Positions 48,219-48,632 are shown, counted from the stretch's first letter. The stretch is DNA of 64,000 nucleotides from Escherichia coli (GCF_030013595.1 NZ_CP122768.1), one strand, 5' to 3'. Notes: generated from the letters alone by a model not told the origin. Numbers and translations: made by a program.

Positions 48219-48632
48219 CATTACTGAACACTAAAACCTGACGCACATCACAAAATTAGAACGATCAGTTCATGAACCAACAGACGTGACATCGAGTGAT
48301 TTATGGACAGCGTTTAACACAGTTATGAACCAAAACTGAGTTCATAACTGTGAGTTTGAATCGTCATTTGATTAATATCCATTTAAAACAGTTTGTTATG
48401 CTGTTTCTGGTGCTGAAGTCAATTATGTATATCCCTCAAACCCAGAATAGTTAAATGGAATTTGAGTGATGCGAAGCGATTTTACGGTCGTCGTTATTAC
48501 TTCAGGGTTCCAGAACATAAAGCCTCTCCTCTTTCATGATTGGCCTGTGCATACCGGATATAGGCTGGCTGGTATGCAGGTTTGCCGTTTGCCGCATCTT
48601 CCCTGCGTTGAAGAGTCAGGCTGGCAAACCGC

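What the first reader, a model, noticed from the sequence alone, without database searches (positions are those of the whole stretch)
48268..48349. Matching palindromes on the other flank of the metabolic cluster
Downstream of the CMD gene and upstream of the AraC fragment are a perfect GTTCATGAAC palindrome (48268-48277) and an inverted repeat AGTTATGAAC-N9-GTTCATAACT (48321-48349). The same motif family thus brackets the LysR cluster on both sides. These could be operators for the truncated AraC-type regulator, terminal repeats of an inserted unit, or binding sites for an island-encoded protein.
Basis: seen in the sequence. Interest (0 to 1): 0.45.

Follow-up and report, generated by a model that had tools for sequence, protein, structure and literature searches.

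The report
Conserved end motifs of GInt islands
The palindromes are conserved sequence blocks in the right-hand end of a decayed mobile genomic island of the known GInt type, whose cargo is the LysR metabolic cluster; they are most likely docking sites for the island's recombination proteins, not operators for the neighbouring regulators.

Summary
GTTCATGAAC lies at 48268-48277. The inverted repeat at 48321-48349 is really a perfect 13-bp one (48318-48352).

The window is E. coli, at the hipA / yneL / F9-fimbriae locus. Two decayed GInt islands (ginABCD-type, Tn6571 family) sit there in tandem:
- A "type A" defence island at 27347-40672.
- A gin-less "type B" remnant at 40673-48457, whose cargo is the LysR cluster.

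Each element ends in ...A(A/T)AGTTAAAT, and K-12 joins hipA-GTTAAAT almost directly to 48463.

The reported palindromes lie in the type B 3' end (about 48219-48457). The "matching" left-flank copies lie in the 3' end of the other island, so they do not bracket a single unit.

Homologous ends occur in E. coli, Klebsiella, Raoultella, Enterobacter, Salmonella, Citrobacter, Pantoea, Chimaeribacter and Tatumella. They stop at the same nucleotide and are followed by unrelated flanks. The palindromes are the best-conserved blocks within about 74%-identical DNA. An Enterobacter mori plasmid carries the cluster without GInt ends and has no palindromes.

Shown: membership of a GInt end, and conservation. 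Inferred: the motifs bind Gin recombination proteins. This is a new member of a known kind and of modest interest, although GInt end-recognition signals have not been described.

The parts
48267..48279 (.). Distal site of the type B GInt 3' end: CAGTTCATGAACC. It contains the reported palindrome GTTCATGAAC (48268-48277), about 190 nt from the terminus.
   Evidence: Conserved (AGTTCATGAAC or one change) in 9 of 13 type B ends from seven genera.
48318..48352 (.). Central site of the type B 3' end: a perfect 13-bp inverted repeat, CACAGTTATGAAC-N9-GTTCATAACTGTG. It contains the reported 10-N9-10 repeat (48321-48349).
   Evidence: The arm cores AGTTATGAAC and (A)G.TCATAA are invariant or nearly so in 10 of 13 ends, while the loop and flanks vary. 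No informative covariation.
48424..48457 (+). Terminal block of the type B 3' end: AATTATGTATATCCCTCAAACCCAGAATAGTTAAAT. It includes the proximal TTATG site at about -30 and the attR repeat ATAGTTAAAT (48448-48457; core GTTAAAT 48451-48457).
   Evidence: All type B ends stop here and are followed by unrelated flanks. K-12 joins hipA-GTTAAAT to 48463.
48219..48457 (+). Whole AT-rich 3' end of the type B GInt remnant (36% GC against 47% for the window).
   Evidence: 72-76% identical over its full length to ends of complete GInts and of plasmid-borne elements, all ending at query position 238/239. Homology to the non-GInt copy of the cluster stops at 48187. GC content.
40673..40738 (+). Left (5') end remnant of the type B GInt. 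TTCAT lies at +21..25 from the core. The ginABCD operon that should follow is missing.
   Evidence: 87% identical to the left end of the complete type B GInt in strain VTB96935v (L008 14360-14434), upstream of its ginA.
40938..48187 (.). Cargo of the type B remnant: a LysR regulator (40965-41864, minus strand) and a divergent oxidoreductase / quinol monooxygenase / CMD cluster.
   Evidence: Annotation of homologous loci. About 91% identical to a block on an Enterobacter mori plasmid that has no GInt ends.
40340..40672 (+). 3' end of the neighbouring type A GInt. Motif copies are at 40416-40427 (AATTCATGAATT), 40495-40506 (GGTTCATGAACA), 40557-40567 (AGTTCATGAAG) and 40636-40646 (GTTTATGAACT). 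The attR repeat TAAGTTAAAT is at 40663-40672.
   Evidence: Homologous ends on 141 plasmid records all stop at 40672. AGTTCATGAAG, TTATGAACT and CAACATAAGTTAAAT are invariant in 8 diverged ends.
27347..40672 (+). Type A GInt, defective. It comprises the left end; ginA' (about 27543-28274) fused to 'ginB (28276-28932); ginC (28944-31310); ginD (31310-31744); an Xre-type helix-turn-helix (HTH) gene (32087-32419, minus strand); defence-type cargo (AAA ATPase plus ABC-three-component genes, 33892-38195); and an IS91-family insertion.
   Evidence: Absent from strain CFSAN018748, with an exact junction. Gin homology and the GinA(1-244)/GinB(295-513) fusion. Annotation. Pfam.
27337..27346 (+). attL repeat TATGTTAAAT at the hipA-proximal junction.
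38345..40161 (-). IS91-family insertion inside the type A GInt (410-aa transposase, 38525-39757).
   Evidence: Missing from the otherwise 99.9% identical locus L002. Pfam Y2_Tnp and Zn_Tnp_IS91.
48458..48463 (+). Six-base block next to the terminus. It reads GGAATT here but CATGTC in K-12 and in two GInt-occupied strains; identical DNA (TGAGTGATGCG...) follows in all of them.
48621..48887 (+). yneL, the C-terminal fragment of an AraC-family gene. It is chromosomal context outside the element.

Best explanation
The palindromes are conserved sub-terminal sequence blocks of the short AT-rich 3' end of a GInt-family genomic island. GInts have a ginABCD operon, cargo and a 3' end, and are moved by tyrosine recombinases.

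**Shown: what the DNA is**
- The segment 40673-48457 is a 'type B' GInt that has lost its ginABCD operon.
- It keeps 66 bp of its left end, its cargo (the LysR cluster) and a complete right end.
- It sits at the attachment site just 3' of hipA.
- A second, 'type A' GInt later inserted at the same GTTAAAT core between hipA and the first element. This placed its own right end, with the same motif family, on the other side of the LysR cluster.

**Inferred: what the motifs do**
- The repeated (A/G)GTTCATGAAC-like units are recognition sites for one or more Gin proteins.
- There are three sites in type B and four in type A, at comparable distances from the terminus. A TTCAT unit also lies at +21..25 of every left end.
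- Binding at these sites would assemble the two ends into the recombination complex and distinguish the right end from the left.
- This would resemble the arm-type sites of lambda-like integrases or the multiple end-binding sites of Tn7-type transposons.

Both elements in this window are probably immobile on their own. One lacks gin genes altogether and the other has a ginA-ginB deletion.
For: **Locus and boundaries**
- The island 27347-40672 is absent from strain CFSAN018748, with a 10-bp overlap at the junction. K-12 joins window 27346 to about 48463.
- The three junctions read TATGTTAAAT, TAAGTTAAAT and ATAGTTAAAT.

**The palindrome region is a mobile-element end**
- Window 48219-48462 matches 51 plasmid records and 62 further E. 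coli genomes at 60-80% identity. These matches end at query 238/239, the terminus.
- Fifteen loci inspected (L013 carries the same element as L006) terminate in A(T/A)AGTTAAAT. Seven are followed by unrelated flanks, three by the same yneL-side chromosomal flank, and five by left-end-like sequence of another GInt.
- Seven more loci from other species were found with a pattern drawn from the terminal block.

**Family**
- A complete element with this end (L008 plus L006, strain VTB96935v) carries four genes of 359, 555, 845 and 167 aa after hipA, then defence cargo.
- The type A counterpart on a Raoultella plasmid has genes of 446, 521, 788 and 144 aa.
- Proteins 1 and 2 hit Pfam Phage_integrase. 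Protein 3 gives only a weak integrase match.
- GinA, GinB and GinC match Sakai ECs_3512, ECs_3511 and ECs_3510 in the same order (E = 3e-15, 2e-8, 9e-9). The ECs_3510-ECs_3509 pair is listed as a ginC-ginD pair in Idola et al. 2023.
- The published GInt description fits: ginABCD, cargo, a 0.2-0.4 kb poorly conserved AT-rich 3' end, and 10-11 nt imperfect direct repeats (PMC5385486).

**Footprint**
- In type B ends the invariant blocks are AGTTATGAAC, AGTTCATAA, the GTTCATGAAC site and the terminal 34 nt. Overall identity is about 74%.
- In type A ends AGTTCATGAAG and TTATGAACT are invariant.
- The two end types are otherwise barely alignable. A collinear global score exceeded all 1000 shuffles, but the local score was not significant. 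Their Gin proteins are only 30-40% identical, yet both ends use the same motif.

**Segregation**
- The cluster without GInt ends (E. mori plasmid) has no palindromes.
- GInt ends without the cluster have them.

**Left ends**
- TTCAT lies at +21..25 in seven junction sequences, representing four left-end variants.
Against: - No binding data exist. Which Gin protein, if any, recognises the motif is unknown.
- Bardaji et al. 2017 reported finding no common feature in GInt 3' ends, so the motif may be specific to this enterobacterial clade.
- Three of 13 type B ends (Pantoea twice, Salmonella diarizonae) share only the terminal 60 nt or so and lack the two distal sites in the alignment. These sites are therefore not indispensable in all lineages, or they have been replaced there.
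- Several of the aligned ends are near-duplicates, so the number of independent lineages is about six per type.
- GinD showed no detectable similarity to the Sakai GinD.
Confidence: 0.7

Rival explanations
1. The palindromes are operators for the truncated AraC-type regulator (yneL), for an intact ancestor of it, or for the cluster's LysR regulator.
For: They lie between the CMD gene and yneL. Palindromes are typical operator shapes.
Against: - yneL lies outside the element terminus, and K-12 keeps yneL without the palindromes.
- The same palindromes occur in GInt ends with unrelated cargo and no AraC or LysR gene nearby, in at least six other genera.
- The E. mori plasmid copy of the LysR cluster has none.
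- The LysR-type divergent promoter region is at 41865-42000, not here.
Confidence: 0.02
2. The 13-bp inverted repeat acts as an RNA hairpin. It would be a terminator or insulator that stops transcription running out of, or into, the element end.
For: It forms a stable hairpin: -21.4 kcal/mol, z = -5.2 against shuffles. It lies about 100 nt downstream of the CMD stop codon.
Against: - No T-run follows it, and the terminator scan does not call it.
- In the complete type B GInt the last cargo gene points away from the end, yet the repeat is conserved.
- The arms are conserved as sequence with no significant covariation.
- The same core sequence recurs as non-hairpin sites at 48268 and in type A ends.
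- No Rfam match, even at E <= 1.
- Against: read-through unaffected by deleting one arm.
Confidence: 0.08
3. The inverted repeat is recognised as a folded single-stranded DNA hairpin during strand-biased recombination, as with integron attC sites or IS200/IS605 ends.
For: [quoted passage not shown] The hairpin is stable on both strands.
Against: - Type A ends have single palindromic sites rather than a long hairpin at the equivalent place.
- Idola et al. 2023 found double-stranded nicked circles for SEs.
- The L014 variant breaks a pair without compensation.
Confidence: 0.08
4. The motifs bind a host or cargo-encoded factor, such as a nucleoid protein or the element's Xre-type repressor, rather than the Gin recombination proteins.
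For: Both GInt types carry a conserved Xre-family HTH gene after ginD. Tyrosine-recombinase systems often use accessory DNA-bending proteins.
Against: - The Xre gene's own divergent promoter region carries a different inverted repeat, CTTAG-N5-CTAAG.
- The motif resembles no E. coli regulator consensus I can recall (from my own knowledge, not tested).
- The motif also lies at a fixed distance (+21..25) from the crossover at left ends, which suggests a role in the recombination complex.
Confidence: 0.1

Closest known systems
[quoted passage not shown] Bardaji et al. 2017, Sci Rep 7:46254.
   Same: - Four-gene module in the same order: two tyrosine recombinases, a large recombinase-fold protein and a small protein.
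- Variable cargo, including defence systems.
- A 0.2-0.4 kb AT-rich 3' end.
- 10-nt imperfect direct repeats and site-specific insertion.
- GinA-C are homologous to a listed E. coli GInt.
   Different: - The element that carries the finding has lost ginABCD entirely. The adjacent one has a ginA-ginB deletion.
- The repeated GTTCATGAAC-type sub-terminal motif and the 13-bp inverted repeat are not described in the GInt papers read here. They state that no common feature was found in the 3' end.
Defence-island hotspot #20 (hipA / ydeT) of the E. coli pan-genome. Hochhauser et al. 2023, PLoS Genet.
   Same: It is the same chromosomal position. That paper also reports GInts as defence-carrying elements at several hotspots.
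   Different: That survey scored occupancy by defence systems. It did not describe the metabolic LysR-cluster remnant, the tandem arrangement or the end motifs. I could not confirm that they classed hotspot #20 islands as GInts.
[quoted passage not shown]
   Same: - Several tyrosine-recombinase-type proteins plus a small TnpC-like protein.
- Target specificity.
- Six-base junction 'footprints'.
- Short imperfect terminal inverted repeats. Here type B shows CAAACCCA...TGGGTTTG flanking AGTTAAAT.
   Different: - SE gene order is intA-tfp-intB-srap: the second protein is non-catalytic and the third is a large catalytic recombinase. Here proteins 1 and 2 carry the integrase domain.
- Published clustering separates GInt proteins from SE proteins.
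Arm-type and accessory sites of lambda-like attP, and the multiple TnsB sites in Tn7 ends.
   Same: Several copies of one short motif are spread over 200-300 bp next to the crossover point, in different numbers and orientations at the two ends.
   Different: This is an analogy of function only. Binding has not been shown, and no arm-binding domain was identified in the Gin proteins.
Tandem accretion of integrative elements and non-autonomous remnants (cis-mobilizable elements, CIMEs, next to ICEs in streptococci).
   Same: A recombinase-less element that keeps both att-type ends lies in tandem with a related element at the same site.
   Different: It belongs to a different element family. Mobilisation in trans has not been shown here.

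Membership tests
GInt (Bardaji et al. 2017) | ginABCD operon at the 5' end of the element | tested here: not met
   - The element carrying the finding (40673-48457) has no gin genes. Only 66 bp of a type B left end remain.
- Complete relatives with the same ends do have the operon (L008).
- The neighbouring type A element has ginC and ginD, but ginA(1-244) is fused to ginB(295-513).
- It is therefore filed as a GInt-derived remnant, not a functional GInt.
GInt (Bardaji et al. 2017) | Gin proteins homologous to recognised GInt proteins, in the order recombinase, recombinase, recombinase-fold protein, small protein | tested here: met
   - BLASTP of the Raoultella type A proteins against Sakai ECs_3512/3511/3510 gave E = 3e-15, 2e-8 and 9e-9. 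The ECs_3510-ECs_3509 pair is listed as a ginC-ginD pair in Idola et al. 2023, file 10.
- Pfam Phage_integrase hits proteins 1 and 2 only.
- GinD gave no hit.
- Catalytic residues were not examined.
GInt (Bardaji et al. 2017) | Short (0.2-0.4 kb), AT-rich, poorly conserved 3' end with some well-conserved stretches | tested here: met
   The 3' ends are 239 bp (type B) and about 330 bp (type A), at 36% GC against 47% for the window. Overall identity is about 74%, with invariant blocks.
GInt (Bardaji et al. 2017) | Flanked by 10-11 nt imperfect direct repeats (attL/attR) | tested here: met
   TATGTTAAAT (27337-27346), TAAGTTAAAT (40663-40672) and ATAGTTAAAT (48448-48457).
GInt (Bardaji et al. 2017) | Site-specific integration with an empty site in other strains | tested here: met
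   - A K-12-like empty junction is present in 3436 of 5426 complete E. coli genomes.
- Different GInts occupy the same point.
- A similar 27-nt target lies on a Raoultella plasmid.
GInt (Bardaji et al. 2017) | Excision as a circular intermediate that depends on all four gin genes | not testable with these tools
   This needs PCR or genetics. Both copies in the window lack a complete operon.
Strand-biased circularizing integrative elements (SE) | Gene order intA - tfp (non-catalytic) - intB (large catalytic) - srap | tested here: not met
   The integrase domain is in proteins 1 and 2. Protein 3 gives only a weak integrase-profile match. Similarity is to a listed GInt.
Operator of an AraC- or LysR-type regulator | The site co-occurs with the regulator gene and its target promoter across genomes | tested here: not met
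   The palindromes are present without these genes and absent where the cluster is present without GInt ends.
Intrinsic (Rho-independent) terminator | G+C-rich stem followed by a T-run | tested here: not met
   The stem is A+T-rich, no T-run follows, and the scan does not call it.

The most novel reading that the evidence does not exclude
The GTTCATGAAC-type sub-terminal repeats, including the 13-bp inverted repeat, may be the self-recognition sites of the GinABCD machinery. The original GInt study could not find such sites. If so, gin-less remnants that keep both ends, such as this LysR-cluster segment, would be non-autonomous elements that a co-resident or tandem GInt of the same end type can move in trans.
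Probability: 0.3. Interest if true: 0.5.

Novelty: new member of a known kind. Interest (0 to 1): 0.33.

Why it matters
- **The cluster is mobile cargo.** The LysR / oxidoreductase / CMD cluster between hipA and the F9 fimbrial genes is the cargo of a decayed mobile island rather than native chromosome. That explains why it is present in only about a tenth of complete E. coli genomes.
- **The hotspot grows by stacking.** GInts stack in tandem on the same GTTAAAT core at the hipA hotspot. This may be a route by which islands grow and leave behind recombinase-less cargo blocks.
- **A testable candidate for GInt end recognition.** How GInts recognise their own ends is not known. A short motif conserved across two end types, whose recombination proteins are only 30-40% identical, is a concrete candidate for the missing recognition signal. 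It is also a practical marker for delimiting GInt right ends in genome annotation.

Tried and rejected
- **Non-coding RNA.** Rfam gave no match over the whole window at gathering scores, and none over 48100-48700 at E <= 1.
- **Small ORFs.** Only short ORFs with no support overlap 48219-48620.
- **Terminator.** The scan called nothing at the hairpin.
- **Covariation in the hairpin.** It was uninformative: 7 of 13 pairs are invariant, and the single double change is not significant.
- **Local alignment of the two window flanks.** The local score was not significant (40 of 1000 shuffles reached it). Only the collinear global score stood out (0 of 1000). The two ends share motifs and layout, not extended sequence.
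- **GinD function.** There was no Pfam or NCBIfam family, no significant PDB sequence match, and only a weak PHROG hit of unknown function. I did not run structure prediction, because it would not identify the protein that binds the motif.
- **Xre-type HTH as the binder.** This is unlikely, because its own promoter region has a different inverted repeat.
- **Idola et al. supplement.** I looked there for the exact protein accessions of these elements and found none. Family assignment therefore rests on similarity to the listed Sakai element.
- **Generality and junction mechanics.** I did not define the ends of the Sakai GInt, so the motif is untested in more distant GInts. I could not reconcile the 6-base block next to the terminus (GGAATT against CATGTC) with either the SE 'footprint' rule or a simple overlap-heteroduplex model.

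Full report
**1. The observation**

GTTCATGAAC is at 48268-48277, and AGTTATGAAC-N9-GTTCATAACT is at 48321-48349, as reported. The repeat extends to a perfect 13-bp stem, CACAGTTATGAAC-N9-GTTCATAACTGTG, at 48318-48352.

Neither feature is rare when taken alone. The window has 55 perfect 10-bp palindromes, and 7 loci carry a perfect inverted repeat of at least 10 bp.

What is not chance is the clustering:
- Eight of the 11 matches to AGTTCATGAA (up to 1 mismatch) lie in two stretches of about 250 bp, 40416-40646 and 48267-48278. None of 100 shuffles gave 11 matches.
- GTTCAT occurs 4 and 5 times in those stretches, against 0.16 and 0.22 expected (P = 3e-5 and 4e-6).

**2. Where this is**

The window is an E. 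coli chromosome. The gene order is lsr, autotransporter, hipBA, then the region of interest, then yneL (an AraC-family pseudogene), the F9 fimbrial genes (ydeQRST), ydeP, safA, ydeO and ydeN.

Comparison with three strains fixes the boundaries:
- Strain CFSAN018748 lacks 27347-40662. The two junctions overlap by 10 bp.
- K-12 joins window 27346 to about 48463. It therefore lacks the island, the LysR cluster and the palindromes, but keeps yneL.
- The three junctions read TATGTTAAAT (27337-27346), TAAGTTAAAT (40663-40672) and ATAGTTAAAT (48448-48457).

The region between hipA and yneL is thus two inserted units in tandem, each ending in GTTAAAT.

**3. What the units are**

The left unit starts with a four-gene module and carries defence-type cargo. 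Complete relatives show the intact module:
- On a Raoultella plasmid the proteins are 446, 521, 788 and 144 aa, followed by defence cargo and then a right end 72% identical to window 40344-40672.
- In E. coli strain VTB96935v a second version (359, 555, 845 and 167 aa) sits after hipA. Its right end is 74% identical to window 48220-48456 and is followed directly by yneL.

Evidence for the family:
- Proteins 1 and 2 carry the Pfam Phage_integrase domain. Protein 3 gives only a weak integrase-profile match.
- GinA, GinB and GinC match ECs_3512, ECs_3511 and ECs_3510 of strain Sakai in the same order (E = 3e-15, 2e-8, 9e-9). The ECs_3510-ECs_3509 pair is listed as a ginC-ginD pair in the supplement of Idola et al. 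2023.
- The published definition of GInts fits: a ginABCD operon, cargo, a 0.2-0.4 kb poorly conserved AT-rich 3' end, 10-11 nt imperfect direct repeats, and site-specific insertion (PMC5385486).
- Hochhauser et al. 2023 list hipA/ydeT as defence-island hotspot #20 and report GInts at several hotspots.

I call the two versions type A (left unit) and type B. Their Gin proteins are 30-40% identical.

**4. The LysR cluster is the cargo of a decayed type B GInt**

- Window 40663-40738 is 87% identical to the left end of the complete type B element, upstream of its ginA. Homology then stops, so the gin operon is gone.
- The right end (48219-48457) is a full type B 3' end.
- An Enterobacter mori plasmid carries the cluster (window 40938-48187, about 91% identity) in an ordinary metabolic neighbourhood. 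Homology ends 30 bp before the CMD stop codon, and neither a GInt end nor a palindrome follows.
- Enterobacter sichuanensis has the cluster plus the same right end at another site. E. cloacae, Chimaeribacter and Tatumella keep only the last 75-100 bp of the CMD gene next to the right end.

The type A element in the window is also defective. GinA residues 1-244 run straight into GinB residues 295-513, and an IS91-family element is inserted at 38345-40161.

**5. The palindromes belong to the GInt end, and they are its best-conserved part**

*Shared terminus.* Window 48219-48462 finds 51 plasmid records and 62 further E. coli genomes at 60-80% identity. These matches end at the terminus. Fifteen loci inspected (L013 carries the same element as L006) end in A(T/A)AGTTAAAT. 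Seven are followed by unrelated flanks, three by the same yneL-side chromosomal flank, and five by left-end-like sequence of another GInt. Seven more loci from other species were found with a pattern drawn from the terminal block.

*Type B ends.* In the alignment of 13 type B ends, three kinds of block are invariant or nearly so, while the DNA between them varies:
- the arm cores AGTTATGAAC and AGTTCATAA (10 of 13 ends);
- the GTTCATGAAC site (9 of 13);
- the terminal 34 nt.

*Type A ends.* In 8 type A ends, AGTTCATGAAG (about -115), TTATGAACT (about -37) and CAACATAAGTTAAAT are invariant.

*Shared layout.* Both types place copies of one motif at about -190/-177, -137 to -109/-115, and -37. 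The two ends are otherwise barely alignable.

*Left ends.* Seven junction sequences, representing four left-end variants, carry TTCAT at +21..25 from the core. Five of them are sequences found to the right of another GInt's terminus, so tandem stacking is common.

**6. Mechanism**

*Shown:* the element identity, the boundaries, the conservation, and the segregation of the palindromes with GInt ends rather than with the cluster or with yneL.

*Inferred:* the motif copies are binding sites for Gin proteins that organise the two ends for recombination. Three points support this:
- The motif is conserved as sequence, with no significant covariation in the hairpin.
- It recurs as non-hairpin sites.
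- It lies at a fixed distance from the crossover at both ends.

Which protein binds is unknown. GinD gave no informative match.

*Rivals:*
- The element's Xre-type repressor is an unlikely binder, because its own promoter region carries CTTAG-N5-CTAAG repeats.
- A terminator role is unlikely. There is no T-run, the scan does not call it, and the repeat is conserved where the last cargo gene points away from the end.
- A folded single-strand role cannot be excluded. Type A ends do not show it.

**7. Distribution**

| State of the hipA-yneL junction | Complete E. coli genomes (of 5426) |
|---|---|
| Empty, K-12-like | 3436 |
| Type B end of this lineage (at least 95% identity) | about 490 (489 of 560 matching records) |
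| Tandem junction: type A right end next to type B left end | 3 |

**8. Verdict**

The 'bracketing' picture and the operator idea are wrong.

The element is a new, decayed member of a known family at a known hotspot. The conserved end motif does not appear in the GInt papers read here. Those papers state that no common feature was found in the 3' end. This gives the finding modest value.

**9. Unexplained**

The six bases next to the terminus are GGAATT in the window but CATGTC in K-12 and in two GInt-occupied strains. Identical DNA lies on both sides. GInts are reported to generate sequence variants at their attachment sites. I could not fit this case to a specific cut-site model.

Noticed in passing
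window 26375-27250: hipA is a pseudogene here. It has a 510-bp internal deletion relative to K-12 (junction at about 26871) and the reading frame is then lost. hipB appears intact.
   Followed up: partly
window 38345-40161: An IS91-family element (410-aa Y2 transposase with a zinc-binding domain, plus a 121-aa ORF) is inserted in the type A island. It is absent from the otherwise 99.9% identical locus of strain HCP5S3_I2.
   Followed up: partly
window 27543-28932: The ginA and ginB genes of the type A island are fused by a deletion: GinA residues 1-244 are followed by GinB residues 295-513. The island should therefore be unable to move by itself.
   Followed up: yes
window 32420-32503: The divergent promoter region of the island's Xre-type HTH gene carries two CTTAG-N5-CTAAG inverted repeats. 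These are likely its operators. The gene is conserved just after ginD in both GInt types.
   Followed up: no
window 48458-48463: A block of exactly six bases next to the island terminus differs: GGAATT here against CATGTC in K-12 and two other strains. The DNA on both sides is identical. This may be a recombination footprint.
   Followed up: partly
window 27320-27346; L009 218-243: A 27-nt target, GTGCGCATAATGTAYRTTATGTTAAAT, is shared by the hipA 3' flank in E. coli and by the insertion site of a type A GInt on a Raoultella plasmid. In E. coli, GGTTTATG lies at the same distance from GTTAAAT as in type A right ends.
   Followed up: no
window 48438-48457 with 40673-40684: When joined, the type B ends would read CAAACCCAGAAT-AGTTAAAT-GTGGTGGGTTTG. 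This is an 8-bp perfect inverted repeat (CAAACCCA/TGGGTTTG) around an 8-bp spacer, resembling a recombinase core site. Type A ends show no such repeat.
   Followed up: no
window 33892-38195: The cargo of the type A island is an AAA-family ATPase plus two 'ABC-three component system' genes, as annotated in relatives. It is a candidate anti-phage system and I did not examine it.
   Followed up: no
L022 (Enterobacter cloacae DSM 26481) 4458-6104: E. cloacae has the same tandem layout in miniature. A type A right end is followed, about 1 kb later, by a CMD 3' fragment and a type B right end.
   Followed up: partly
L018 781-900 (Salmonella plasmid pN19S0223-1): After a type A right end comes a chimeric left end. 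Its first 35 nt or so are type B-like and the next 65 nt or so are type A-like, which suggests recombination between GInt left ends.
   Followed up: no
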